Shown: positions 1-58,246 of the stretch, piece after piece
Layout of the letters: every line of letters begins with the position of its first letter
Position numbering within the stretch: the stretch's first letter is position 1
Notes under the pieces: generated by a model
Seen by the model: the letters and a program-made list of their open reading frames with translations, nothing else
Database searches by the model: none
Told to the model about the DNA's origin: nothing
Assembly (NCBI GenBank): GCA_963827235.1
Contig: CAWHAE010000010.1
Span: 640,001 to 704,000 of the forward strand
Source: an uncultured bacterium
Lineage (GTDB): Bacteria > Chloroflexota > UBA5177 > JANWHV01
Direction: 5' to 3'
DNA length: 64,000 bases
Made by a program: the position numbers and the translations under genes

Positions 1-504
1 CAAGCGCGCGCCGATGTACACCACGTCGACCTCCTCGCCGGCTTCGTGGCGGTGGTAGGTCCACGCTCGCCTCTCCCGGCGATAGATCTCGACGGCCTGA
101 TAGTCGGCGTTCACCAGCATGTACTCCTCAACGCTCGCACAGGACTGGTAATTGCGCAGCTGGCGGCCCCGGTCGACGCGCTCGGTGCTCGGCGAGAGCA
201 CCTCCACCACCAGCCGTGGATATGCTATCTCGTCGTCCTCGGCGTTCTCGGCGTCGCGCTCGTCGCACGTCACGCCGACATCAGGGTACACCTGCACCGC
301 CTCGGAGAGACGAACGCGCATAGCGGAGTTGCAGGCGCGGCACGGCAGGCCGGCCACCGCCCCGGCGAGCAGGCTGAACGCGTTCCCGGCCAGCGTGTTG
401 TGCCGCCGCGTCCCGCCGGCCATGAGGCTGATCGCGCCGTCGAAGTACTCGTGCTTCGGCTCCACGCCGGCCCGCTCCATGGCGCGATACTGCTCGACGG
501 ACAT
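1..504 (-). CDS. Uma2/DUF820-family putative restriction endonuclease (3' end runs off window)
   Basis: Manual minus-strand translation: MSVEQYRAMERAGVEPKHEYFDGAISLMAGGTRRHN...VEVLSPSTERVDRGRQLRNYQSCASVEEYMLV. Typical Uma2 motifs. An in-frame ATC at 534 behind a strong RBS may be the true start. Confidence 0.9.
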   Translation of the reverse strand, partial: MSVEQYRAMERAGVEPKHEYFDGAISLMAGGTRRHNTLAGNAFSLLAGAVAGLPCRACNSAMRVRLSEAVQVYPDVGVTCDERDAENAEDDEIAYPRLVVEVLSPSTERVDRGRQLRNYQSCASVEEYMLVNADYQAVEIYRRERRAWTYHRHEAGEEVDVVYIGARL

Positions 505-629
505 GGGTGCGAACCCGGCTTGCTCAGCGACGATCGTCCTCCTCCGGCGACCGGACCGGCACGGCTTACCTGCCCGCCCGGTCACGTCATGCTGCGATCC
601 TCATGGTAACCCAGGCGAAGGAACCCAGA

Positions 630-720
630 GGGGAGCGGGCGCCTCCGACCGCGGTCGGATGGCAGGGCACGGGGAGCGGGCGCCTCCGACCGCGGTCGGA
701 TGGCAGCAGACGGGGAGCGG
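630..720. repeat. 41-bp tandem repeat (2.2 copies) of dispersed repeat family B, with palindrome TCCGACCGCGGTCGGA
   Basis: GGGGAGCGGGCGCCTCCGACCGCGGTCGGATGGCAG starts at 630 and 671; a third GGGGAGCGG starts at 712. Confidence 0.9.
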
Positions 721-783
721 GGGTGGTGCGGCGGTGGGAGCGGCGAGCCTGTCGAGCATGGGGTGACCTCGCTTTCGCGTATG

Positions 784-833
784 GAACATCTGTTCGACTA
801 TCACCATCGTAGCACGGGATTGGGCAAAGTCAA
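784..833 (-). promoter_or_regulatory. Sigma70-type promoter with a LexA (SOS) box just downstream of the -10
   Basis: Minus strand: TTGACT-16nt-(TGc)TACGAT, then CGAACAGATGTTCC (GAAC-N4-GTTC at 784-795). Confidence 0.7.
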
Positions 834-929
834 GGAAGACATGGTGCGGCCATTTTCGGGTGATCGGCGGCCCGCGGAGCGCCAGGAATCGGCGTTCGAC
901 GCCCCCAGATCAGGGCATCACAGCGCCGG

Positions 930-1340
930 TCACCCGGGAGACCGACCCGCTTCCTCGTGCGCACGCATGTACTCGACAACCTCGATCACTGCCTGAAGCT
1001 TATCGTCGGGAAGCTTGCTCGCGCCATCCTCGACCAGTTGCAGGGCTTCTTCGCGAGCCACCTTGTCTTCCGGCGGCAGCTTCTCGACGCCGAGGCTTGC
1101 CTCGAGATACTCCCCGCCTTCGGCGAAATAGCCCAGAGGCACCTCAAAGAACGAGGCCAGTGCCTCCAGAACGCTGAGACCGGGGTTGCTCATCGCTCCC
1201 GTCCGCAGTTTCCACACGTAGCTCGCCGTGACGCGGTTCCCCGTGGCGCGCTGTACCTGGCCATAGGTGAACTGCCGGCCTTGCACGCTTCGTCGCGCAC
1301 TGAAGAGCCAATCAACCTTCTGCGCAAGTGTCTTGCTCAT
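930..1340 (-). CDS. XRE/EspR-like helix-turn-helix DNA-binding protein
   Basis: TLAQKVDWLF...VTASYVWKLRTGAMSNPGLSVLEALASFFEVPLGYF matches the EspR-like HTH pattern. Confidence 0.85.
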   Translation of the reverse strand: MSKTLAQKVDWLFSARRSVQGRQFTYGQVQRATGNRVTASYVWKLRTGAMSNPGLSVLEALASFFEVPLGYFAEGGEYLEASLGVEKLPPEDKVAREEALQLVEDGASKLPDDKLQAVIEVVEYMRAHEEAGRSPG

Positions 1341-2101: not shown

Positions 2102-2342
2102 CGGAATACCTACCTGTTCGTACCGATGCGGTTGCGAGCTCGAATATGGCCATCCGCCGTCCATCCAACTTCGCCTCGGCTCCGACTGTGTTCGCTCCTT
2201 CGCGCCTGATTGCTTTCGATTGGCACGAGCGTGCGTACCACCAACTCACATTCTATGTCCAGTGCGTTACACGCGCGTGCAGCGCCGGGCCGGAGGAAAT
2301 CCCGATGAACCGATTCGGATTCTTAGGGAAGAAGTGCGTGGT

Positions 2343-2426
2343 CGGGTCGCCGTGGGTGCCCGGAAACGCAGATGACGCAGATACGAGGAGATGACGCAGA
2401 TGACGTGCGGCGCGAGGCGGTAGCGT
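2343..2426 (+). repeat. Dispersed repeat family A, copy 1 (ACGCAGATG-type units)
   Basis: 80/84 nt identical to 6941-7024; core GGAAACGCAGATGACGCAGAT. Confidence 0.95.
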
Positions 2427-2508
2427 CCGTGGCGAGGTGAGCCGCGCCAACCTGTGCGGCTGTGCACCGGCGTGCTATAGTCAGACCAAGGCGCAGGAGA
2501 ACACCACG

Positions 2509-2730
2509 ATGCAGCACCGGCATCTGAACCACGAAGGATTTACCCCCACAGCAATCGACGACATCATCGATCGAGGCGGCCTGAACGACTGGCTTGATCT
2601 CCGCGCTGCAATACTGGACGACCAGAGTCTACGCGACGATCTGCTCCGCATCTGCGCAGCACACACAGGCGATCCCTACGCACAGCGATACCACTTCTGG
2701 GAGCAGTATGCCCGACACGCGCACACCTGA
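2509..2730 (+). CDS. Putative antitoxin of the downstream nucleotidyltransferase toxin
   Basis: 73 aa, MQHRHLNHEGFTPTAIDDIIDRGGLNDW...; AGGAG RBS; TGcTATAGT upstream; overlaps the toxin start. Confidence 0.7.
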   Translation: MQHRHLNHEGFTPTAIDDIIDRGGLNDWLDLRAAILDDQSLRDDLLRICAAHTGDPYAQRYHFWEQYARHAHT

Positions 2731-3520
2731 GTGGGAGCGCGTGCTCCTCGCAGCAGCGCACCTTCAACGGATCTTGCCCGGCGCAGTCCTGGTAGGCGGG
2801 ACCGCATCAGCCGTGCACGCCCATCACCGCGACTCCACGGACGCCGACCACATCCTGTACGATCTTCGCGACCGCTTCGACGCCGTGCTGGCCGAACTGG
2901 AAGCGGTCGCCGGCTGGAGGACCGCCCGCGTCCAGCGCCCGGTGCAGATTCCCGGCAGCCTCGACGGCATCGACACCGGAATCCGCCAACTGATACGCAC
3001 TCAGCCGCTGGAAACCACGCAGGTCACGATTGAGAACGCCACCTTGACGGTACCGACGGCGCAGGAGGTCCTCCGGATCAAGGCAGCCCTCATCCTGCGC
3101 CGCAACGCGACCCGTGATTACCTCGACGTCGCCGCGCTGTCGGACACCCTCGGGCGGGAGTCGACCCTGGACGCGCTCGCCAACCTGGACGCACTCTACC
3201 CGCAACCTACCGGCGCCTCGGCGCTGCAGCAACTCGCGATCCAGCTGGCACAACCGCTGCCGTTCGACCTGAATACCGTCTCGCTGGCGGAATACAAGCA
3301 CCTCGAGCCACGATGGCATGACTGGAATGAAGTCAAACACGCGTGCACGGACGTGGCTATCGGCCTGTTCGATCGGCTTGGCCGGCAGCGGGCAAAGCCA
3401 ACGTCGCCGGCCGTGCCCCGCGACGAGACCCTGCGCGCCAAGGCGGCCCAGCCGGCCCCGCCGCACACCGCATCAGCACCCGGCAACACGCCGCAGGACA
3501 ACGAGCTGCGTCCCGACTGA
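2708..3520 (+). CDS. AbiEii/AbiGii (DUF1814)-like nucleotidyltransferase toxin
   Basis: AVLVGGTASAVHAHHRDSTDADH (GGTA...R.S.D.D) and LRIKAALILRRNATRDYLD motifs. Confidence 0.85.
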   Translation: MPDTRTPEWERVLLAAAHLQRILPGAVLVGGTASAVHAHHRDSTDADHILYDLRDRFDAVLAELEAVAGWRTARVQRPVQIPGSLDGIDTGIRQLIRTQPLETTQVTIENATLTVPTAQEVLRIKAALILRRNATRDYLDVAALSDTLGRESTLDALANLDALYPQPTGASALQQLAIQLAQPLPFDLNTVSLAEYKHLEPRWHDWNEVKHACTDVAIGLFDRLGRQRAKPTSPAVPRDETLRAKAAQPAPPHTASAPGNTPQDNELRPD

Positions 3521-3599
3521 ACGCACCATCGGGACCCACGGGATAGAGACTAACCCCGAGGAGCACAGGCCGCCACCGCAAGGCATGGGAACAGTGTCC

Positions 3600-3629
3600 G
3601 CGTCCATCCGCGGCTTCCGCGTTTCCGGC
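3600..3629 (-). repeat. Family A-related repeat in inverted orientation
   Basis: Minus strand CCGGAAACGCGGAAGCCGCGGAT versus CCGGAAACGCAGATGACGCAGAT at 2360. Confidence 0.75.
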
Positions 3630-3641
3630 AGGCGCAGCGCC

Positions 3642-4268
3642 CTACTGCAGGGACAGCCTGACCAGCACCGGGCGATGATCCGACACGCCGTCCCACGGCC
3701 CGATCGAGGCGCTCACCGCGCGCCACTGCCGGGTGTGGAACACGTAGTCGATGCGCACCAGCCACATGGGCACGAGCTGGCCGAGCACCGTGAAGCGGCC
3801 GCTGCCGGGAGAGTCCGCGCCGGGGAACGTGTTGCCGAGGCCCCAGCCGGCCTCGCGCCAGGAGTCGACGAGCGCCGAGGTGACGATGCCGTAGGGATTG
3901 TTCTGGTCGGTGCTGTTGAAGTCGGTGGTGACGATCAGCGGCGTGCCGCCCTGCCGCCGCGCGAAGGCGACCAGAGCGCGCGCGTCCTCGGCGCGCCGGC
4001 GGACCTCGGTCTCGATCATGGACGGCCTGAAGATGGTGGAGACGGCGTGCACGCCGGCGACCAGCGTGTGCGCCGTGCCCACGGTGACGTCGACCACGAT
4101 CGGCGTGCCCAGCCACGTGCCGCCGATCCGCAGGCCGGTATCGCGCGCCGGCAGCCGGCTGAGCACGCCCATGCCGCCGTCCGCGTCCGGGTGCAGAAAC
4201 TGGTAGGGATAGCGAGCGCGCAGGTCCCGCGCGATCAGCGCTGCCGTCGCCGGGTTGATCTCCTGGAG
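3642..4268 (-). pseudogene. 5'-truncated duplicate of the EEP-family gene at 7699-8712
   Basis: LQEINPATAALIARDL...SDHRPVLVRLSLQ is near-identical to the C-terminal 208 aa of the 7699 ORF. Homology stops abruptly at ~4268; the N-terminal TM region is missing. Confidence 0.9.
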
Positions 4269-4349
4269 CGACACGCGCAGCGGATGTTGGGGCGCAGCGT
4301 GTGGTGCTTGGCGGCGAGGAAGGCTGCTGCCGGCTCAGGCAGGAGCATC

Positions 4350-4380
4350 GCTCCGCGATCTCCGCGATCTCCGCGTCCGC
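4350..4380. repeat. Short tandem repeat (CTCCGCGAT)n
   Basis: ctccgcgatctccgcgatctccgcgtccgc; 9-nt period, as in family A. Confidence 0.7.
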
Positions 4381-4448
4381 TTGACGGCACGGCCGCCGCA
4401 CTTCGCTCGACTCCCGCACGCGTTGTCGCAGGCATGCGGCTAATTGGC

Positions 4449-6617
4449 TCAGGTCTTCCGCGCTCGCACCGCGGGCGAGGGTGGCGAGGACCAGTCGCTC
4501 GCGCGCCGCCGTGGCACGACGGACTCGTGCTCCCCCGCCGTGCCCCCGCTGCGTGACAGCACGAACCGGCCGACCAGCTCCTGGAGCTGGCTCGCCAACG
4601 CCGCAAGCTCCTGCGCCCCGGCCGCCATCTCCTCCACCGATGCCGTCTGCTCCTCCGTGGAGGCACTGACCTCCTCCGCGCTCGCCGCGCTCTCCTCGCT
4701 CACCGCGGCGATGCTCTCGATGGCACCGGACACCTGCTCCGCGCTCGTGCGCAGCGCCGTACTGGCCTCCAGGGTTTGCCGCGCTACCTCGGAGACCTGT
4801 CCTGCAGCAGTCGACACCCGTCCCACGTTCCCGCTCATCTGCTGAACGGCAACACCGATGCTCTGCACCTGCGCCGTGGTGTTGCTCACCGCACCCAGGA
4901 TGCTCTCCAGCGCGCTCCCTGCTTGCTGGCCCAGCCCGGCGCTGCGTGCTACCTCGGCGTCTCCCTCCTCCATAGCCTGAACCACGTCCCTGACTTGCGC
5001 CTGGATGGCGGCGATGCGCTGGGTAACGCCCTTGGTTTCGCTCGACGCGCGCTCGGCCAGCTTGCGCACCTCTGCCGCCACCACGGTGAAGCCTTTGCCA
5101 TGCTCCCCGGCTCGGGCAGCCTCGATGGCAGCGTTCAGGGCCAGGAGATTGGTCTGCTCGGCGATGTCGTCGATCGCCTCCACGATCTGTCCGATCTCGC
5201 GGCTGCTCTCACCCAGCGCGTTGACCTGCTGGGCGGAGCGGGCGACCGCGGCGCGCACCGAGGCGATGGACGCGATGGTCTGGCGTACCGCCTCACCGCC
5301 ATCCCGGGCCGTTCCTGCTGCCCGTTCGGCCTCGCCGCTCACGGCGGCGACCTGCGTCGTGCTGTCGGCGAGGGCCGTGCGCAACTCGGCCAGGGCTTGG
5401 GCGGTTTGACTGCTGGCGCGGGCCAGCGCGTTGGCGCCGGTCGCCAACTGCTCAACCAGCTGAGTCACGGCGGCGACCTGCGCGGTGGCCTCCGTAGCAC
5501 TCCTGCTCTGGTCGGTGTTATCGCGCGCCACCTCTTCGATGGCGCGGGCGATCTGGGTGCTCGCCTGGCCGACCTGCTGGCTGGCCTGCGCCAGCTGTCC
5601 GCTACCGCTGTCCACCTGCGTGGCACTGGCCGCTACCCGGCCGATCAGATCCGCCAAGGTGCTGCGCGTCTGCTCGTACGCTGCCAGCGTGGCATGCACC
5701 TTGTCCACGATGCCGCGCATCGCCTCTGCCGTCTGACCCGTCTCGTCACGGCTCCGATAGCTCGGCGCCTCCATGGCGACCTCGACGGTTTGCGTGAGGT
5801 CGCCCGTCGCCAGCGCGCCCATGCCCGCAGCCAGCGCGTCGCTTCCCGCCATGACGGAACGCGCCGCGTGCTGCACCTGGGCCAGGGGCCGCGAGACCGC
5901 GCGAGCGATGACGAGGGCGATGCCCAGCCCCAGGAGTACGGCCAGGCTGCCGAGCACGATGCTCAGGACCAGGACGAGCCGTGCCGCGTCCGCCTCCTGG
6001 CTCGATGCCTGATCGATCTCTGCCTGCACGACGTCGATGTAGCTCTGCACCTGGTTCAGGGACGGCACATAGGGAATGGTCGTATAGCCGTAGAAGGCGG
6101 CGTCCCACTGGTGTTTGCGTGCCAGCACGAAGTTCTGCTCGTTGCCCAGCGTGTAGCCACCGTGCCCGTCGACGACGTCGTAGCGGGTGCTGTGGTCGAG
6201 CCCCGCCTTGTCGGCCGCGGTCAGCGGGCCGCTGCCGAAGTAGAAGGTGTGGAAGCGGTTGATCACGGCGCGTTGTGCCGGCGTATCTCCGAGCGCAGTA
6301 GCCGTGGCCAGGGTGGTGCGAATCTGCCCGATCTCCGTGTAGTAGGTGCTGAAGAGCGCTCGCGAGTGGGCAGGGTCGTGGATGAGCGCGCCTTGGGCCC
6401 AGAAGCCGTCGTCGTCGGCGCCCCGTACAAGGACGTAGAGGTCACGGGCCATCTCGCGTGCCGGGTAGAGATGGTGGACCATGCGATCGGCAATCGAGGC
6501 TTGTTGCCGGCTGGCGAGCGTGTCGGCGACGAGCGCGCCGCACATCAGCAGCAGCACTGTACCGAAACCGGCCAGCAGCTTGGGTGTGATTCTCAGGTTC
6601 CGAAACCACGCAATCAT
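4449..6617 (-). CDS. Membrane-bound methyl-accepting chemotaxis protein
   Basis: Two TM helices, a HAMP region and the signature [38 protein letters not shown]. Confidence 0.97.
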
Positions 6618-6806
6618 CTGCCCCTCCAGGTCGTTTGAGTCGCCACAAGGCTCATGTCCATCGGCGGGATTCGGCTGGCTTGCCGCTCCCAGAGCGCCGG
6701 TTCGATCGAGATTGCGGAGATGACCAGCAGCTACATCGCTGAACAGTACGTGCGACGATGCACGAGTGGAGGGACCACCCTGGCTTGCACCAACTATCTA
6801 CTATGA

Positions 6807-6833
6807 CTATCGGCAGAGCCAGGTCGTTCTTTA
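6807..6833 (-). promoter_or_regulatory. Sigma28 (FliA/SigD-type) promoter upstream of the MCP
   Basis: Minus strand TAAA-gaacgacctggctct(15 nt)-GCCGATAG, matching the TAAA-N15-GCCGATAA consensus. Confidence 0.8.
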
Positions 6834-6870
6834 GTCTGTGCGAGAAGCATTTCGCAGATGGCGGGCGGGC

Positions 6871-6938
6871 GCCTCCAGCCGCGGCAGGATGGCAGCGTAC
6901 GGGCCGGCCGGGGTACCCACCCCAGTGGGTCGCGGGTG
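6871..6938 (+). repeat. Dispersed repeat family B, intergenic copy
   Basis: GCCTCCAGCCGCGGCAGGATGGCAGCGTACGGG...; related to 630-720 and 38167-38270; its reverse complement matches 35817-35884 at 61/68 nt. Confidence 0.9.
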
Positions 6939-6940
6939 GA

Positions 6941-7024
6941 CGGGTCGCCGTGGGTGCCCAGAAACGCAGATGACGCAGATACGAGGAGACGACGCAGATG
7001 GTGTGCGGCGCGAGGCGGTAGCGT
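6941..7024 (+). repeat. Dispersed repeat family A, copy 2
   Basis: 80/84 nt identical to 2343-2426. Confidence 0.95.
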
Positions 7025-7250
7025 GCACGGCGATCGGGGCGAGCCGGGGCCGGCCACGGCGGCCGGCTCCCGGCATGCCGGACTGCACGGACAGCCTCAC
7101 CAGCACCGGGCGTATCGCCGCGCCTGTTCACGGCGGCAATGCCGTGACGCGCTCGGGACGCCGGCCGCCAACGCTACGTACGTCAGCAGGTGAAGTTGCC
7201 TGCCCGAGGAGGGACAATGTCGATGAGTAGAAAGCTGGTCGAGTACGATC

Positions 7251-7290
7251 GTGCCGCCGAAAGATCAAGATAGTCGCATGGATACACTGA
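7251..7290 (+). pseudogene. xisH: XisH remnant (internal deletion)
   Basis: GTG-CCG-CCG-AAA-GAT (MPPKD, an XisH-like start) is joined to AAG-ATA-GTC-GCA-TGG-ATA-CAC-TGA (KIVAWIH*, an XisH-like end) that overlaps the xisI ATG. Confidence 0.6.
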
Positions 7291-7580
7291 GAGATGCGCT
7301 TCGGCAAGCCATGGAAGGTTATGCGGGCCGCGCGCTCAATGGCTACAGCTACGTGCTGACGAGCGCGGACGAGAGTGTTTTCGCGGTCGTCTCTGTCGGT
7401 CGCGTCCAGGATCGGCAAATCGTCGATACCGGCCTCGTGGCTCGCCTGGCCGGCGGACACATCGTCGTCGAGCGCGATATCAACGACAAGCCCCTCGTCG
7501 ACGCGCTGACCGGGGCGGGCATTCCGCGGGACCGCGTTGTGCTCGCGTATGAGGGCGAATCGGTCACCGAAGCCGCGTAG
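7278..7580 (+). CDS. xisI: XisI-family protein
   Basis: C-terminal HIVVERDINDKPLVDALTGAGIPRDRVVLAY resembles the XisI fold signature; 100 aa. Confidence 0.8.
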   Translation: MDTLRDALRQAMEGYAGRALNGYSYVLTSADESVFAVVSVGRVQDRQIVDTGLVARLAGGHIVVERDINDKPLVDALTGAGIPRDRVVLAYEGESVTEAA

Positions 7581-7656
7581 GGCCGCCAGGCTCACCCACG
7601 CCGTGACGAGCATACCGGCTTACGGACGAGCGTCGCTGCACGATCCGCACCCATAA

Positions 7657-7686
7657 GCGTCCATCCGCGGCATCCGCGTTTCCGGC
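7657..7686 (-). repeat. Family A-related repeat in inverted orientation
   Basis: Minus strand CCGGAAACGCGGATGCCGCGGATGGACGC. Confidence 0.75.
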
Positions 7687-7698
7687 CAGCGCCGCGCC

Positions 7699-8712
7699 CT
7701 ACTGCAGGGACAGCGTCACCAGCACCGGGCGATGATCCGACACGCCGTCCCACGGCCCGATCGACGCGCTCACGGCGCGCCATTGCCGGGTGTGGAACAC
7801 GTAGTCGATGCGCACCAGCCACATGGGCACGAGCTGACCGAGCACGGTGAAGCGGCCGCTGCCGGGAGAGTCCGCGCCGGGGAAGGTGTTGCCGAAGCCC
7901 CAGGCGGCCTCGCGCCAGGAGTCAACGAGCGTCGAGGTGACGATGCCGTAGGGGTCGTTCTGGTCGGTGCTGTTGAAGTCGGTGGTGACGATCAGCGGCG
8001 TGCCGCTCTGCCGCCGCGCGAAGGCCACCAGGGCGCGCGCGTCCTCGGCCCGCTGCCGGACCTCGGTCTCGATCATGGACGGCCTGAAGATGGTGGAGAC
8101 GGCGTGCACGTCGGCGACCAGCGTGTGCGCCGAGCCCACGGCGACGTCGACCACGATCGGCGTGCCCAGCCACGTGCCGCCGATCTGCAGGCCGGTATCG
8201 CGCGCCGGCAGCCGGCTGAGCAGGCCCATGCCGAGGTCGTCGTCCGGATGCAGGAACTGGTAGGGATAGCGGCCGCGCAGGTCCCGCGCGATCAGCGCTG
8301 CCGTGGCCGGGTTGAGCTCCTGGAGGCCGATCACGTCCGCGTTCGAGGCGAGCAGGGCGGCCACCACGCCGGCAGGGTGCTCGTTCGTCTGCAGCATGTT
8401 GAAGGTCTCGACGCTGAGAGCCGGACCGCGCCCCGGCGCCACGTGCTTGGGCAGGAACAGCGGGCCGAAGCCGACCAGCAGAATGCCGAGCACCACCAGG
8501 CAGCCGGCGACCGCCGTGCGCGATCGCGCCAGGGCGGCGCAGACGACGGCGAGGGGCAGCGGCACGAACAGGTAGAGGGCGAAGGCGTTGGCCAGGAACA
8601 TCCACCAGGGGTGGTCGCCGAACGCCAGGCGAAGCAGCAGCCAGGCGAGCACCGCGAGCGCGTAGACCACCGCCGCGGCGTGCAGAGTCCGCCGTATGCC
8701 GAGCCGGTTCAC
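7699..8712 (-). CDS. Endonuclease/exonuclease/phosphatase (EEP) family membrane protein
   Basis: Three N-terminal TM helices; TFNML, ADVIGLQE, TDFNST, RIDYVF and SDHRPV motifs. Start may be GTG 8712 or ATG 8778. Confidence 0.92.
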   Translation of the reverse strand: MNRLGIRRTLHAAAVVYALAVLAWLLLRLAFGDHPWWMFLANAFALYLFVPLPLAVVCAALARSRTAVAGCLVVLGILLVGFGPLFLPKHVAPGRGPALSVETFNMLQTNEHPAGVVAALLASNADVIGLQELNPATAALIARDLRGRYPYQFLHPDDDLGMGLLSRLPARDTGLQIGGTWLGTPIVVDVAVGSAHTLVADVHAVSTIFRPSMIETEVRQRAEDARALVAFARRQSGTPLIVTTDFNSTDQNDPYGIVTSTLVDSWREAAWGFGNTFPGADSPGSGRFTVLGQLVPMWLVRIDYVFHTRQWRAVSASIGPWDGVSDHRPVLVTLSLQ

Positions 8713-8907
8713 TGCACGATCTGCCTCGCCAGCGGGGAGCGATATATAGGGATGCGGCGTATGCCGCCGCAGTCGCATGGTACAGGATCCCGCTCCTGCG
8801 ACATGCTCTGTCCCGGGATGCAGCTAGGGCACTGCCAAGCGTCAAGCCTGAGGCTTCGACGCGAGGATCGGACGCGACTACGTGCGGTGCCCGGAGCGGA
8901 AGTACCG

Positions 8908-10302
8908 TCAGCGCGCGATCGCACGCGAATTGATGGGGTGTTCAGCCGACCTACCGGGAGCGGGGGCACCGAGACGCCAGATATCCGCACGGGAAGATTG
9001 CCGAGTGGCGCCCGTCGTGTCCACCAGGATCTGCGCGCCACGGGCAACCCGGGTGAAGTCGATCGCGCTGTGCGCTACCAGGACGACCACGGCATCCGCC
9101 TCACCCAGCTCTTCATCCGAGAGCGGCACGGATCGCAGGTCCGTGGATCCGTTCTTGCCGAACACCGTGCCGGAGACGCGAAACACCGGCACATGCGGAT
9201 CGTGGTAGCGTACGTCGGCACCCCGCGTGCGCAACAGCTCGATCACGCGCTGCGACGGCGAATTGCGCGCGTCGTCGACGTCGCGCTTGAACGCCACGCC
9301 CAGGGCCAGAATGCGCGAGCCGTTGACCGATCGCTGATGACTGTCCAGCGCCCTGGCGATCAGGTCGACGGTGTGGAACGGCATGTTGTCGTTCGTCTCC
9401 GCTGCCAGCTCCACGAACCGCGTGTAGAAGTCGAACTCGCGTGCCTTCCAGCTCAGGTAGAACGGATCGACCGGGATGCAGTGGCCGCCCACGCCCGGGC
9501 CGGGATAGAAGGGCATGAAGCCGAAGGGCTTCGTCGACGCGGCGTCGATCACTTCCCAGATGTCGAGTCCCATCCGCTCGGCCAGCATGGCCAGCTCGTT
9601 CACCAGCGCGATGTTCACGCTGCGAAAGGTGTTCTCCAGCAGCTTGGCCATCTCCGCCGCCCGGGCCGAGGACACGGCGTGCACTTTCCCCGGCGCCACA
9701 CTCTCGAACAGCAGCAAGGCCAACCGCCCGCCCTCGGGTCCGGCCCCGCCCACCACCTTGGTCACGGTACCGATGTCGTAGTGCGAATGGCCGGGGTCGA
9801 TGCGCTCGGGCGAGAAGGCAAGGAAGAAATCGCGCTCGTGCATGAGGTCGCCCGCCCCCTCCAGGATGGGAAGCACCAGCTCCCCCGTGGTGCCCGGGTA
9901 CGTCGTGCTCTCGAGCACCACGAGCTGGCCCGGTCGCAGCGCCGCGGCGATGGCGCGTGCGGCTTCCGTGATATAGCTCAGATCGGGCACCTTCAAGGTG
10001 GTGTACGGCGTGGGCACGCAGATGAACACCGCGTCCGGCGACGGGTCGAGCGCCTGATAGTCGGTGGTCGCCGACAGCTTGCCAACCTGCACCAGCGGCG
10101 CCAGACGGCTGGACGGCACGTCCGGAATGTAGCTCGTGCCGGCGCGCAGCGACTCGATCTTGGTCGTGTCCAGGTCGACACCGACCACGTGGTAGCCGGC
10201 CTCGGCGAACTCCGTTGCCAGGGGCAGCCCGACGTAGCCCAGGCCAATCACGCAGACCTGCGCCGTGCGCTCGCGGATGCGCCTCTCCAACTCGGTATTC
10301 AT
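8908..10302 (-). CDS. Nucleotide-sugar (UDP-GlcNAc-type) 6-dehydrogenase, WbpA/WecC family
   Basis: VIGLGYVGLPLA, ESTTYPGTT, FSPERIDPG, AEMAKLLENTFRSVNIA and PGPGVGGHCIPVDP motifs. Confidence 0.95.
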   Translation of the reverse strand: MNTELERRIRERTAQVCVIGLGYVGLPLATEFAEAGYHVVGVDLDTTKIESLRAGTSYIPDVPSSRLAPLVQVGKLSATTDYQALDPSPDAVFICVPTPYTTLKVPDLSYITEAARAIAAALRPGQLVVLESTTYPGTTGELVLPILEGAGDLMHERDFFLAFSPERIDPGHSHYDIGTVTKVVGGAGPEGGRLALLLFESVAPGKVHAVSSARAAEMAKLLENTFRSVNIALVNELAMLAERMGLDIWEVIDAASTKPFGFMPFYPGPGVGGHCIPVDPFYLSWKAREFDFYTRFVELAAETNDNMPFHTVDLIARALDSHQRSVNGSRILALGVAFKRDVDDARNSPSQRVIELLRTRGADVRYHDPHVPVFRVSGTVFGKNGSTDLRSVPLSDEELGEADAVVVLVAHSAIDFTRVARGAQILVDTTGATRQSSRADIWRLGAPAPGRSAEHPINSRAIAR

Positions 10303-10671
10303 ACAGGCTTAGCATGCACTACCGAGGCATGCGCTGGCAAGAGCCTCGGCCGATAAGAGCGCCCCCAATTGGTCCCGAACCACAACAGAGTTCCCGGATC
10401 AGCCTGTCTGGGAAGCTGGATGGAGTGTGACTATGTAGCCCACAGTGGGGGACGCAGAGCTTGCTTGCAGGAACGAGGAGAGCGAGCGACGCAGGGTCGA
10501 GGTCAGTCGCCAATCCGCCGACGATCGCCGGCTGCTTGGCCCTGGGGCTCGGCACCGCCTTGTCGCGAGAGTGCCTGCAGACGATCCACCTCGCGCCCGG
10601 CGCCACAGCCCGAAGCAGGCGCTGGACTGAGCGAAGTCGAACCGCCGCCAGCCAGTGCTACACCGCGCTTA

Positions 10672-35009: not shown

Positions 35010-38000
35010 ATGAACCCTCGAACGAACGCCGTCGCGGCACTGGTTGCCGCGGCGGCGTTCGCCGTCTACGAGGCAACGTCCAGCCACGGAGTATCCTGGG
35101 CCCTGGGCGTGTCGGACAGCGGCGAGCTGGCGGCGGCGGCGCACGTGCTCGGCGTGCCGCACCCCACGGGCTATCCGCTCTACATGCTGCTGGGCTGGCT
35201 GGTGAGCAACGCGCCGCTGGGCGCCGACCCGGCATCCAGGCTCACGGCGCTCTCGGCGATCTGCGGCGCGCTGGCCTGCGGCCTGGCCTGCCTGCTGGTC
35301 GCCGCCCTGGCGTCCGGTGACGACCACTCCGGGCTCCCGCCTCCGGTCCGGCGCGCACGGGCACCACGGCCAACCGGGCCGGCCACCGGCTCCGATCGGC
35401 CGGAGTGGACACTCCTCGTGGGGCCGCTGTGCGGCGGCGCGGCCTGCGCGGGACTCTCGTCGCTGTGGCGCCAGTCCACGGCGCCGGAGACGCGGCCCCT
35501 GGCGATGTGCCTGGTGCTGGGCGCCCTGCTCCTGCTCCTGCAGGCCTGCCGCCGCCGCGACCGCGGTCTGCTGATCTGGTCCTGGGCCGTCTGGGGCTTC
35601 GCGCTGGCCGACCACCTGCTCTGCCTGGCCCTGCTGCCGGCGCTGGCGATCGGCACGGTGGTGCTGTCGCTCGATCGCGGCAGCGCAACGGATGCAGCCG
35701 CGCCGCCGATCCCGTCGCCGGACGCGGATCACGGACTCGAGGAGCCCGCCCCGGCGCCGGGCATCACCATGGACGGCCCGCAAGCTCCGGCCGCCGGCAG
35801 CCTTCCCACCACGCCACACCCGCGACCCACCGCGGCGGGTACCCCGGCCGGCCCGGACCCTGCCATGCTGCCGCCGCTGGAGGCCGCTGTTCCCGCAGCC
35901 GGCCCGGACCCTGCCATCCTGCGACCGCAGTCGGACCTCGCGCTGCCATGCGACCGCAGTCGCAGGTTCGCCCTGTGCGCGCCGCTCGCGATTCTCCCCG
36001 GCCTCTGTCTCTATGCCTACCTGCCGCTGCGCGCCGGCGCGCACCCGTCGCTCGACTGGGGCGATCCGGAGACGCCCGGCCGCTTCCTCGACACGATCAC
36101 GGGATCGCAGTACAGCGACCTGATGGGCGTCCCGATGCCGGATCTGGGCGCGCGGCTGATCGACCGACTGGGCGACATGGGTTCGGTGCTGGGCGCTCCC
36201 CTGGCGGCGGCCGCGCTGCTGGGAGCCCTGCTGCTGGCGTGGCGATCGCGGACGGCGGCGGCGCTGCTGGCGGCGGTATGGCTCACCGCCCTGCTGCAGT
36301 CGTCGCTCTACGCCGCCGGATCGGCGCCGGTGTACCTGCTGCCCGCCGAGGTGGTGGCCTGTCTGTGCGCCGGCTACGCGGCCGGCTGCCTGCCGCCGCT
36401 GCTTCGCGGCCGGGCGGCGCGCATCGCCGGCGTGGCCCTGCTTGCCGGGCTGGCGGCGCTCACGGCGGCGCACGACGTCTCGGATGTGCAATCCCTGCAG
36501 GCCGGCGTCCACGACCAGGACGTGACGGCGTTCGCGCGCGCCGCGCTCACCGGGCTGCCCGACCGCTCGCTGGTCGTGGTGTCGGGCGACGAGGACACCT
36601 TCGCGCTGTGGTACGCGCAGTTCGGCCTCGGTCTGCGCGCCGACGTGGCGGTGGTGAACGTGGATCTGCTGGCCTGGCACTGGTACCGGGACGATCTCCG
36701 GCACGGCTACCCGTGGCTGCAGTGGGGTCCGCCGTGGCAGCCGGACGGCGCGGCCGACGAGGTCACGCGCTCCACGGATCGCGAGGACGCGCTCGTGCGG
36801 GCCATGGCCGGCTACCGGCCGATCTACTTCACCAGCCTGATGGACATACCGGTGCAGATCTGCGCCCCGCACGGGATCGCCAACCTCTTCCAGTGCGTGC
36901 CGGAGGCGGGCCAGTTCGTGCCCACGGCCACGGCGAGCATGCCGGCGCCCGGGCGGCCGCGAGGCCGGGTGCGGATCGCCATCCAGCCGATCGCCAAGGT
37001 AATCGGCGATGCGTCCCAGGCGCCGGCGGGCGTGCTGCGGCAGAACGGCGGGCTGGACAACGTGACCGGCGCGGACCTCGGCTATCCGGCGCTCTACCGG
37101 GGCCGCTGGTACCTGGCCTTCGGCGACACGGCCTACGACGCGGGCAAGGTGGGCCAGTTCCCCTTCTTTCCCAATATCGACGCCCCGTCCAACTTCGTGG
37201 TCGCCACCTCGGCGTCCTCCGACCTGGATGGCGGGCTGCCGTTCAGCGGCTATCTCAACACGCGGCCGGCATACATGTCCAAAGCCTCGGCGCCCTTCCG
37301 GGCCATCGCGGGGCACGCCGACCAGTACACGCTGCCCGGGGGACTCTACACCGTGCGCTACCGCGGCCGGGAGACGCTGATCGCCCAGTACATGCTGGAT
37401 GGGAACGCGGGCGGCGACCTGCACTGGGCGGAGCGGTCGACCATCGCCGTGTTCGATCCGGCGGACGGCATGTTCCACGACTGGAAGGCGGCCGTCTACG
37501 ACTGGCACGCGGCGGCGGGCAGCCACTCGCAGTACGACTTCGGCAACAGCGTGTTCTGGGAGGACGGCGCGGAGCGCTACCTCTACATGGTCGGCGCCGG
37601 CACGGACCGCTTCGGCGGCGCCAAGATCGCGCGCATCCCCGTGGCATCCTTCCTCGACCCGAGGGACCACGCGGGCTGGTCGTACTGGCTGGGAGGGTCG
37701 TGGTCGGCTCCCACCGTGGACGAAGGCGCGATCGCACGGTCGGTGGCCTGGCTGATCCCGCCGCGCGACCCGGCGTGGTCGCCGGGCAAGAGCTACGCCA
37801 ACGACCCGCACCGGTGCGCGGACATGGGCATCGGCGAGTTCAGCCTGGTGTGGAATGCCTACCTCGGGCGCTTCCTGCTGTTGACCGGCACGGGCAGCTG
37901 CGGGTCGAGCGACCTCCGCATCTACCAGGCGGCGTCGCCGGCCGGACCGTGGACGGCATCGCCGGCGCAGATACTCGCTGCCGGCGATGCCGGGCAGGGA

Positions 38001-38136
38001 GGGGCGGGCCGGCGGCCTGTACGCCCCCTACAGCACGGACGAGATGGAGGCGAACGGCGGGCAGACGATCTACTTCCTCCTGTCGACGTACGGCGGCTAC
38101 GGCGTCTACCTGTACAAGGCCACGCTCTCGGCGTAG
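35010..38136 (+). CDS. DUF2723 (TMEM260-like GT-C) fused to a DUF4185-like propeller; frameshift near 37975
   Basis: DSGELAAAAHVLGVPHPTGYPLY, YAYLPLRA...DWGDP and GDEDTFALWY; then GADLG...FGDT. The conserved-looking end GLYAPY...IYFLLSTYGGYGVYLYKATLSA* lies in another frame and ends at 38136. Confidence 0.85.
35817..35936 (-). repeat. Family B repeat copies embedded in frame within the DUF2723 gene
   Basis: 35817-35884 is the reverse complement of 6871-6938 at 61/68 nt; a second partial copy lies at 35898-35936. Confidence 0.9.
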
Positions 38137-38166
38137 CGGGAGGGGCGAGCGACCTGCCTGAAATTG

Positions 38167-38270
38167 GCCTCCATCGGCGGAAGGATGGCAGCGCACGGGG
38201 CGACCGCGGTCGCGGAGAGACGTACCTCCATCTGCGGAAGGATGGCAGCGCACGGGGCGACTGCGGTCGG
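38167..38270. repeat. 57-bp tandem repeat (2 copies) of family B
   Basis: CCTCCATC(G/T)GCGGAAGGATGGCAGCGCACGGGGCGAC(C/T)GCGGTCG at 38168 and 38225. Confidence 0.9.
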
Positions 38271-38446
38271 GGATGAGGCCGGGAGGCCTCGATATATCTG
38301 CTATTTATGCTCTGCTATACTGGGTCTAGCACCATGGTGGACCGCTCGATTGGTGCAGTTTGCCGCGGCAGGACTGAGCAAGATGCCGCTCATGATCGTG
38401 CGCGGTAGACGGAGGCGACGAGTCGAAGTAGCGGTGAGTCAGGAGG

Positions 38447-57560: not shown

Positions 57561-57645
57561 CGTCTGCTCCAGCATCGGCGTGTGATTCAAACGGTAGCGG
57601 CGCACCTCGCCGAACCTGGCTTGCTGCGCATACTGCGTTGTCACT

Positions 57646-57847
57646 ACTGTACGTGGCAGAACCATACCTGTCAATACCGGTATAGTAGCCGCGCGGAGCA
57701 GAGCGACATCCCGTGCGTCCGCATCCGGCCTGGCTTTGCTCGAGTCCACCCGCCAACAGGTGGAACGTGTGGCGGTGCACCACCGTAGGATGGGGTTTCG
57801 TCGATGCAACCTTCTGTATTGACAGGTATGCGTAGGTCTGGTACGGT
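57646..57847. promoter_or_regulatory. Mirror-image divergent sigma70 promoters
   Basis: Minus strand TTGACA-17-TACAGT; plus strand TTGACA-17-TACGGT; perfect 15-bp inverted repeat at 57663-57677 and 57816-57830. Confidence 0.85.
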
Positions 57848-58246
57848 AGTGGCGGTTTGGCAACGTGTTGGCAGCCGCAGAATTCGCAGTCTCTCTGGGT
57901 GCCTCAGATCCTGGGCGTTACTGTCGCCGGCTCGGCGAGGAGATGCGCGACACCCTGCGTCGCAGATTTGGGCGCTGGATCGAACGCGAGAATTCCGTGA
58001 GGCCCACCCCAGACTGGCGGCGGCACCGTAGCCTGGGAGCGTGCTAGGCCGGGTCGCCTACAGCAGGTGCCGGTCATGGCGCTGGCGCCAGTACCGAAGG
58101 AGGAACAGCAGGAGCAGCCGGTTGGCGATGCCGAATTCGCCATGACGGTAGATTGGCACAGACGAAGTTTGCTGTCGCGCGTAGCCCTCCGAACACTCGC
58201 TTGCTCACATGCACGCGCTGTTTGTCAAGAAAGGCTGGTGAACCTG

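What the first reader, a model, noticed from the sequence alone, without database searches (positions are those of the whole stretch)
2343..8325. Two paralogous cassette sites with the same arms, inverted ACGCRGATG repeats and swapped cargo
Seen: site 1 is left arm 2343-2426, then cargo (nucleotidyltransferase TA pair), then right arm ~3600-4268. Site 2 is left arm 6941-7024 (80/84 identical), then unrelated cargo (xisH remnant plus xisI), then right arm ~7657-8325 (same EEP 3' end). At both sites the cargo is bracketed by inward-facing copies of one short-period motif: GAAACGCAGATGACGCAGAT on the left and GAAACGCGGA(A/T)GCCGCGGAT inverted on the right. Inference: these repeats mark an exchangeable cassette slot that collects small toxin/nuclease modules without an adjacent integrase. 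It would be an integron-like diversity hotspot and is the best candidate here for an undescribed system.
Basis: partly seen in the sequence, partly recalled or inferred. Interest (0 to 1): 0.82.

Follow-up and report, generated by a model that had tools for sequence, protein, structure and literature searches.

The report
Hairpin repeats with two stray inserts
The two "cassette slots" are copies of a small scattered hairpin repeat, normally gene-less and tied to a nuclease family of unknown function, that each took in a small foreign gene at a different breakpoint, so they look like a rearrangement hotspot and not an integron-like system.

Summary
The arms are real: 80/84 and 630/669 identical. 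They belong to a genus-restricted family of inward-facing 9-10-nt-unit repeats. An empty 234-bp copy with the same interior lies 380 bp before the window. All 18 other pairs seen in five genus genomes and two metagenome contigs are 52-290 bp and gene-less, mostly with unrelated interiors. Only 2 of 3,620 small genes of this genome are bracketed: these two. The inserts have different junctions. Other XisI (0/24), AbiEii-like (0/5) and Uma2 (0/28) loci are not bracketed by such arms, whereas 13/24 GxxExxY nuclease loci are. A relative's intact GxxExxY gene abuts arms 91-93% identical to these; no such gene was found here. The two EEP copies diverged as coding genes (pN/pS 0.36), so site 1 is probably an imported or old, recently cut fragment. 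Best reading: REPIN/NIME-like orphan hairpins plus illegitimate recombination (0.6). A nuclease-driven capture slot is not excluded (0.17). Integron membership fails. No reads were available. The scan noted the GxxExxY-plus-arms design before on other DNA.

The parts
1..585 (-). Uma2-family nuclease gene, running off the window start; the empty element lies just past its 3' end (G000:C10:639629-639862)
   Evidence: PF05685 E 5.6e-31; empty element
2338..2443 (+). Site 1: left arm (units start at 2363) plus about 40 bp of element interior; the first 11 bp are flank shared with site 2
   Evidence: 92% to 6936-7033; 88.9% over 99 bp to the empty element
2509..2730 (+). 73-aa ORF, likely antitoxin/partner of the nucleotidyltransferase
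   Evidence: Homologue beside the NTase in all 6 other loci (one is an 11-residue contig-end match); weak DUF6922 lead at score 0.82
2708..3520 (+). AbiEii-like nucleotidyltransferase (type IV toxin-antitoxin-like), 270 aa
   Evidence: Homologues with PF08843; plasmid homologues annotated AbiEii/AbiGii; weak PADLOC AbiEii E 0.005
3596..3630 (-). Site 1: right arm (starts at 3625), 17 bp behind the EEP stop
   Evidence: matrix score 25.2; alignment to empty elements
3642..4268 (-). 3' 209 codons of a second EEP gene, cut at a non-homologous junction, frame still open
   Evidence: 94% to the full copy; pS 10.5%, pN 3.8%
4349..4376 (-). Solo arm of a related 9-nt-unit family (CGCGGAG units), the only three-unit copy in the genome
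   Evidence: (D12)
4449..6617 (-). Methyl-accepting chemotaxis gene between the two sites
   Evidence: PF00015; 3' part 96% identical to G000:C17:161661-163212
6860..6940 (.). Copy of a second, commoner intergenic repeat family (about 50 clusters), also at 630-711
   Evidence: copies lie beside Y1-transposase genes at C9:124771 and C9:589774
6936..7083 (+). Site 2: left arm (units start at 6961) plus about 80 bp of element interior
   Evidence: 88.3% over 137 bp to the empty element
7082..7112 (-). 31-bp third piece of the EEP 3' end at the left junction of insert 2
   Evidence: 93.5% to 3644-3674 and 7701-7731, E 6e-6 genome-wide
7278..7580 (+). xisI-family gene, 100 aa; upstream xisH tail unconfirmed
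   Evidence: PF08869; 50% identical to arm-less XisI of G003 and G004
7636..7686 (-). Site 2: interior tail plus right arm (starts at 7682); a 7-bp word at 7636-7642 repeats 7083-7089
7699..8778 (-). Full-length membrane-anchored EEP-family gene (YafD/VanJ-like by source names)
   Evidence: PF03372; homologue names

Best explanation
The arms are the ends of a small non-autonomous hairpin element, REPIN- or NIME-like: two inward-facing arrays of a 9-10-nt unit around 0-200 bp of variable interior. SHOWN: such elements and solo arms are scattered through the genus, mostly just behind genes; they are absent at matching sites in sister genomes; and the arm family travels with GxxExxY (PD-(D/E)XK) nuclease genes. 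INFERRED: that nuclease binds or nicks the arms and spreads them, and this genome has lost the gene, leaving orphans. One element settled right behind the EEP gene. Two versions of that arm-EEP unit diverged by about 6% while both EEP copies were still under selection. Each took in a small foreign module by break repair or illegitimate recombination inside the fold-back, at different points. The site-1 version now sits 4 kb away as a 1.9-kb fragment (2338-4268) with non-homologous ends, imported from a sister lineage or left from an old duplication. The cargo type reflects what survives as a lone insertion (self-contained addiction/nuclease modules), not selection by the repeat.
For: Empty copies share the interior with both sites. 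18 of 20 pairs seen are gene-less, 52-290 bp; 17 of the 18 fold better than shuffles (z -2.5 to -21). The exact arm pattern is in 4 of 5 genus genomes and 0 of 396 other phylum genomes; the fifth has degenerate arms. None of 15 G000 intervals matching arm sites of relatives holds an arm (against 38), e.g. a 27-bp gap in G000 where G002 has about 600 bp with three arms (L190). GxxExxY link: inward arms at 13 of 24 GxxExxY loci against 0 of 24 other XisI, 0 of 5 other AbiEii-like, 0 of 28 Uma2 and 0 of 15 EEP loci. L186 has an intact GxxExxY gene (TIGR04256, 114.7 bits) beside arms 91-93% identical to the window's, and G001 keeps a remnant beside three arms. Junctions differ: site 1 leaves the element at about 2443, site 2 at 7083 through a piece of EEP. 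EEP pN/pS 0.36, Fisher p 0.003; against the nearest outgroup 5 differences side with copy 1, 7 with copy 2, 4 with neither. Insertion of DNA into REPINs is anticipated in PMC3116915 (discussion read).
Against: Both filled pairs hold small toxin/nuclease-associated modules, which is a coincidence under a purely passive model. Uma2 may be enriched next to arms: 2 seen against about 0.5 expected (P 0.08), or 4 if the gene beside the empty element and one remnant are counted (P 0.002). The unit list behind the 13/24 figure was drawn from those same loci; a family-blind test gave 16/24, but it also missed the window's own two sites. No GxxExxY activity is shown, and in L186 and G001 the gene lies outside, not between, the arms. 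In G001 and G002 arms also lie near a Y1 transposase gene, so the cognate enzyme is not certain. Relatives were seen only 1.5 kb around each arm and three of them are fragmented, so larger filled pairs could be missed.
Confidence: 0.6

Rival explanations
1. Programmed capture slot: a nuclease acting in trans, most likely GxxExxY, cuts at arm pairs so that foreign DNA is loaded between them. Most loads are short non-coding pieces (the unrelated interiors), and now and then a whole gene.
For: Of 15 interiors compared, only one pair is related along its length. Two G000 interiors have no other copy in the genome. Both gene-sized loads are small selfish modules. A similar role was hypothesised for neisserial dRS3/NIME arrays (PMC1797815, passages). 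The same toxin-antitoxin pair sits between direct 66-bp hairpins of another family in G177.
Against: No shared crossover point; 0 of 18 other pairs carry a gene; 75 open stretches of interiors have no Pfam hit and no GxxExxY likeness; one G002 interior is a mosaic of other host repeats; no cognate gene found in G000.
Confidence: 0.17
2. Composite by recombination between dispersed arms: the genes were never inserted into one element. A left arm from one place and a right arm from another came to flank resident modules when arm copies recombined, mainly at site 1, where almost all of the interior is gone.
For: Solo arms outnumber pairs. The 8.7-kb region is a mosaic of pieces with paralogues elsewhere. 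Three pieces of the EEP 3' end show repeated local rearrangement.
Against: Site 2 keeps interior sequence on both sides of the insert in the right order. Both sites share 11 bp of outer left flank and the EEP right flank, which points to one ancestral unit.
Confidence: 0.15
3. Assembly artefact: two strain haplotypes were joined in tandem in a metagenome-assembled genome.
For: The bin has 9.06% contamination and holds near-duplicate contig stretches. EEP divergence under selection is what two strains would show.
Against: The contig is 1.08 Mb in a 21-contig assembly. The repeats are short (98 and 669 bp) and only 92-94% alike. The site-1 unit ends at non-homologous junctions inside the EEP gene, which overlap-based joining does not create. 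Even if true, the slot would differ between strains.
Confidence: 0.08

Closest known systems
REPINs with RAYT transposases (PMC3116915; abstract and discussion read)
   Same: Extragenic inverted doublets that fold into hairpins, doublets plus decayed singlets, lineage-restricted, patchy between sister genomes, a cluster next to a single small enzyme gene; DNA insertion into the doublet is anticipated there.
   Different: Each arm is a tandem array of a 9-10-nt unit, not a palindrome; the linked gene is a PD-(D/E)XK GxxExxY protein; copy number is low (about 10-30 per genome).
Neisserial NIMEs: dRS3 inverted repeats around RS elements (PMC1797815, passages), with the SsnA nuclease acting on NTS/dRS3 (PMC11893778; abstract, introduction, discussion)
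   Same: Conserved inverted ends around many unrelated 50-200-bp cores; mosaics with other repeats; a small stand-alone nuclease gene tied to the repeat; proposed role in recombination with foreign DNA.
   Different: Unrelated sequence, arms made of tandem units, few copies and no long arrays; the nuclease is not GIY-YIG and is untested.
Integrons and CALINs (PMC4889954, passages)
   Same: Small toxin-antitoxin-like genes between repeats, no integrase nearby.
   Different: Arms face each other instead of lying as same-strand attC sites; one insert per element, no array; junctions differ between sites.
GxxExxY gene between tandem-unit arms
   Same: Same class of unit and inward orientation; CACAGAT-type arms at L270, L277-L279; near-identical arms beside the gene in L186.
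   Different: Here the gene is missing from the genome and the arms enclose other genes.

Membership tests
Integron / CALIN | IntI tyrosine recombinase next to the cassettes (complete integron) | tested here: not met
   Nearest PF00589 match is C10:590421-590951, about 51 kb away; IntI-specific motif not checked
Integron / CALIN | Two or more attC sites on one strand separating cassettes | tested here: not met
   Arms are in inverted orientation, one insert per pair; no attC covariance model was run
Integron / CALIN | One fixed crossover point for all cassettes | tested here: not met
   Left junctions about 40 bp apart in element coordinates; site 2 joins through an EEP fragment
REPIN/RAYT | Extragenic inverted doublets that fold into hairpins | tested here: met
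   18 gene-less pairs, 17 with z below -2.4
REPIN/RAYT | Each REP is itself a short palindrome | tested here: not met
   Arms are tandem 9-10-nt units
REPIN/RAYT | Cognate RAYT gene flanked by the same repeat | tested here: inconclusive
   G000's two Y1 genes are flanked by other repeats; in G001 and G002 arms lie on one side of an IS200-like gene that has its own repeats
REPIN/RAYT | Excision/transposition intermediates | not testable with these tools
   No sequencing run was listed
NIME/dRS3-Ssn | Conserved inverted ends around many families of unrelated cores | tested here: met
   15 interiors compared, one related pair; mosaic interior in G002
NIME/dRS3-Ssn | GIY-YIG Ssn gene flanked by the repeat | tested here: inconclusive
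   No GIY-YIG hit among 108 flanking genes at E 1e-8; the family was not searched genome-wide
GxxExxY cassette with tandem-unit arms (scan notes) | Inward 9-10-nt-unit arms of this class | tested here: met
GxxExxY cassette with tandem-unit arms (scan notes) | GxxExxY gene between or beside the arms | tested here: not met
   None found in G000 by PF13366, own profile on six frames or the L186 protein; met in L186, remnant in G001
MITE / composite transposon | Constant interior, target-site duplication and a transposase with matching ends | tested here: inconclusive
   One interior subfamily has about five copies in G000, but interiors differ across the family; target duplications were not mapped because no empty site of the same species is available

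The most novel reading that the evidence does not exclude
The arm pairs are the working DNA of an undescribed capture system: a GxxExxY PD-(D/E)XK nuclease cuts at the fold-back, foreign DNA is loaded between the arms, and the unrelated interiors across the genus are a record of such loads. This locus would show the rare gene-sized loads (a toxin-antitoxin pair, xisI) and their exchange between lineages through the shared arms and the EEP flank.
Probability: 0.17. Interest if true: 0.75.

Novelty: new variant of a known kind. Interest (0 to 1): 0.42.

Why it matters
It removes the integron-like claim for this locus but ties a concrete, genus-specific repeat to GxxExxY proteins, a large nuclease-fold family with no known substrate. 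The L186 gene and its arms give a directly testable enzyme-substrate pair, like SsnA with NTS. If arm pairs also load foreign DNA, this would be a third enzyme class (after RAYT and Ssn) behind REP-like repeats and a route for gene gain without an integrase.

Tried and rejected
Reads: no run was listed for 2200-8400, so the assembly is untested. Slot behind EEP in relatives: the gene was not found with this query in the 4 other genus genomes; the 15 distant EEP loci lack inward arms. Structured RNA: no Rfam match in L001, L003, L186. Interiors as gene fragments: 0 of 75 open stretches hit Pfam; no GxxExxY likeness. Interior of the empty element in relatives: one weak match in 4 genomes, E 0.008. 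A weak GxxExxY-like tblastn hit at C12:329200 (E 0.018) was rejected: it overlaps another gene and the profile search found nothing. Viral scan with the L186 protein: no relative. xisH remnant: inconclusive. The 7-bp word at both ends of insert 2 as a target duplication: not adopted, since the left copy overlaps the EEP fragment. No sigma-70 promoter match in 2200-8400. No solved structure for the NTase. Literature: searches found no description of GxxExxY genes with such arms; most subscription papers and bioRxiv supplements are outside this library. PMC4679880 (passages) describes 7-nt direct repeats with a distribution like XisH/XisI but not inverted arms around genes. PMC2701414 and the two GxxExxY-mentioning papers were seen only as search listings.
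Full report
Source. The window is G000:C10:640001-704000 of an 8.0-Mb, 21-contig genome, 95.9% complete with 9.06% contamination. Earlier scan notes call it an uncultured Chloroflexota bacterium; I did not test that label.

Observation. The repeat units face inward at both sites. Most of the 'right arm' (627 bp) is the 3' part of an EEP-family gene, full length at 7699-8778 and cut at 4268 in the site-1 copy. Cargo 1 is a 73-aa ORF overlapping an AbiEii-like nucleotidyltransferase; the pair recurs together in 6 other phylum genomes out of 400. Cargo 2 is xisI; the xisH remnant is inconclusive.

The repeat is a dispersed element. A third copy lies 380 bp before the window and is empty: left arm, about 140 bp of interior, right arm, 234 bp in all. 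Its interior matches both sites and an empty copy at C12:1571629-1571831. A weight matrix finds 16 arms in G000 and none in the reversed genome; a few degenerate arms seen by eye fall below it. The exact pattern occurs in 4 of 5 genus genomes and 0 of 396 other phylum genomes; the fifth has degenerate copies. Across the genus and two metagenome contigs I found 18 further inward pairs (one with a degenerate right arm), all 52-290 bp and gene-less; 17 fold better than shuffles. Of 15 interiors long enough to compare, one pair is related, and one is a mosaic of other host repeats. About 35 solo arms were listed in relatives. None of 15 G000 intervals matching arm sites of relatives holds an arm, so the repeats are gained or lost per lineage.

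Is there a cargo bias? In G000 only 2 of 3,620 small genes are bracketed: the two here. Around 64 other arm loci I extracted 111 neighbours and scanned 108 (three left out: one long secreted protein and two paralogues of a gene already represented). Hits were mostly housekeeping; two Uma2, one Phd antitoxin, one PRiA4_ORF3 and one Y1 transposase were the exceptions. Uma2 is common in the genus (117 matches): about 0.5 expected, P 0.08 for two, P 0.002 if the Uma2 beside the empty element and a remnant at C9:348397 are added. So a mild tendency to co-locate is possible. From the cargo side, inward arms were found at 0 of 24 other XisI loci, 0 of 5 other AbiEii-like loci, 0 of 28 Uma2 loci and 0 of 15 EEP loci (loci with a flank under 300 bp dropped: 2 XisI, 2 Uma2, 3 GxxExxY). 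The xisI genes of G003 and G004, 50% identical to this one, have no arms. One AbiEii-like homologue (G177) lies between direct 66-bp hairpins of an unrelated family.

The partner gene. Inward arms of this class bracket 13 of 24 GxxExxY loci in the phylum (the unit list came from those loci, and a family-blind test gave 16 of 24 against 0-1 for the other sets but missed the window's own degenerate sites). Metagenome contig L186 carries an intact GxxExxY gene (TIGR04256) just outside a nested cluster of arms whose best matches in G000 are the window's left arms, 91-93% over 43-46 nt. G001 keeps an internally deleted copy of that gene beside three arms. No GxxExxY gene was found in G000 by four searches; the genome is not complete. 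A Y1 transposase lies near arms in G001 and G002 but has its own flanking repeats. That the nuclease acts on the arms is inference.

History of this locus. The inserts do not share a crossover. Site 1 follows the element to about 2443 and rejoins it near 3596. Site 2 follows it to 7083, passes through a 31-bp third piece of the EEP 3' end (7082-7112), then foreign DNA with xisI, and rejoins at 7636. Such chained short-homology joints suggest break repair, not site-specific recombination (inference). Both sites share 11 bp of outer left flank and the EEP right flank, so they descend from one unit and are not independent draws. The EEP copies differ at 10.5% of silent and 3.8% of replacement sites (ratio 0.36, p 0.003), with changes spread over both copies and no stop in the cut copy. 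They diverged mainly as working genes; the 2338-4268 piece was imported from a sister lineage or cut late. The wider 8.7 kb is a mosaic of pieces with paralogues elsewhere. An assembly artefact cannot be excluded without reads but is unlikely on a 1.08-Mb contig with non-homologous junctions.

Comparison. It works most like REPINs (PMC3116915) and neisserial NIMEs (PMC1797815) with a repeat-linked nuclease as in Ssn/NTS (PMC11893778). It is not a member of either: the arms are tandem units and the linked gene is GxxExxY. Integron and CALIN features (PMC4889954) were tested and not met, apart from an attC model search that I did not run. I found no paper on GxxExxY genes with such arms; the scan's own notes report that design in many other genomes. 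I had suspected the link from recall before reading those notes.

Verdict. Real observation; integron-like reading not supported; orphan hairpin elements with two one-off inserts (0.6), programmed capture (0.17), composite by arm recombination (0.15), artefact (0.08). New variant of a known kind, interest 0.42.

Noticed in passing
window 711-850; full copies G000:C9:349220, C12:351539, C14:29149: 5' remnant of an unnamed 340-440-aa ORF family (no Pfam hit) with several 95-98% identical copies in G000. Its upstream region has a palindrome like a LexA box (consensus recalled) and solo arms sit just upstream of the full copies; it may be a mobile, damage-induced gene that carries these repeats.
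   Followed up: partly
window 630-711, 6860-6940, 35817-35970, 38166-38273: Second repeat family, 53 clusters in G000, also beside two Y1-transposase genes. The copies at 35817-35970 and 38166-38273 lie inside a predicted 1,088-codon ORF (35010-38276), so that gene may be interrupted or carry in-frame repeat inserts.
   Followed up: partly
L306 (G177:C42) 6913-7974: The same AbiEii-like pair lies between two direct 66-bp hairpin repeats, next to a short PemK-like remnant (name from recall): a cassette-like layout with another repeat family.
   Followed up: partly
L190, L062, L247, L233, L220, L053, L041: At 7 of 64 arm loci the predicted neighbouring ORF ends on the TGA at the arm's outer edge, read from coordinates; arms may insert at, or supply, stop codons.
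   Followed up: no
window 4376-5930 and 8957-10352: Near-identical paralogues elsewhere: chemoreceptor 3' part 96% to C17:161661-163212, UDP-sugar dehydrogenase 99.1% to C9:915925-917320.
   Followed up: no
L289 (G003) and L291 (G004): At the same site behind a nucleotidyltransferase gene, G003 has a 135-aa ORF plus xisI while G004 keeps only xisI; loss of the upstream gene with xisI kept recurs, as in the window.
   Followed up: no
window 930-1340 and 1898-2164: HTH regulator (85% identical copy at C9:525467) and an 88-aa ORF with four paralogues: mobile-element debris left of site 1.
   Followed up: no
window 57642-57851: 36-bp inverted repeat pair 138 bp apart with promoter-like hexamers in both arms.
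   Followed up: no
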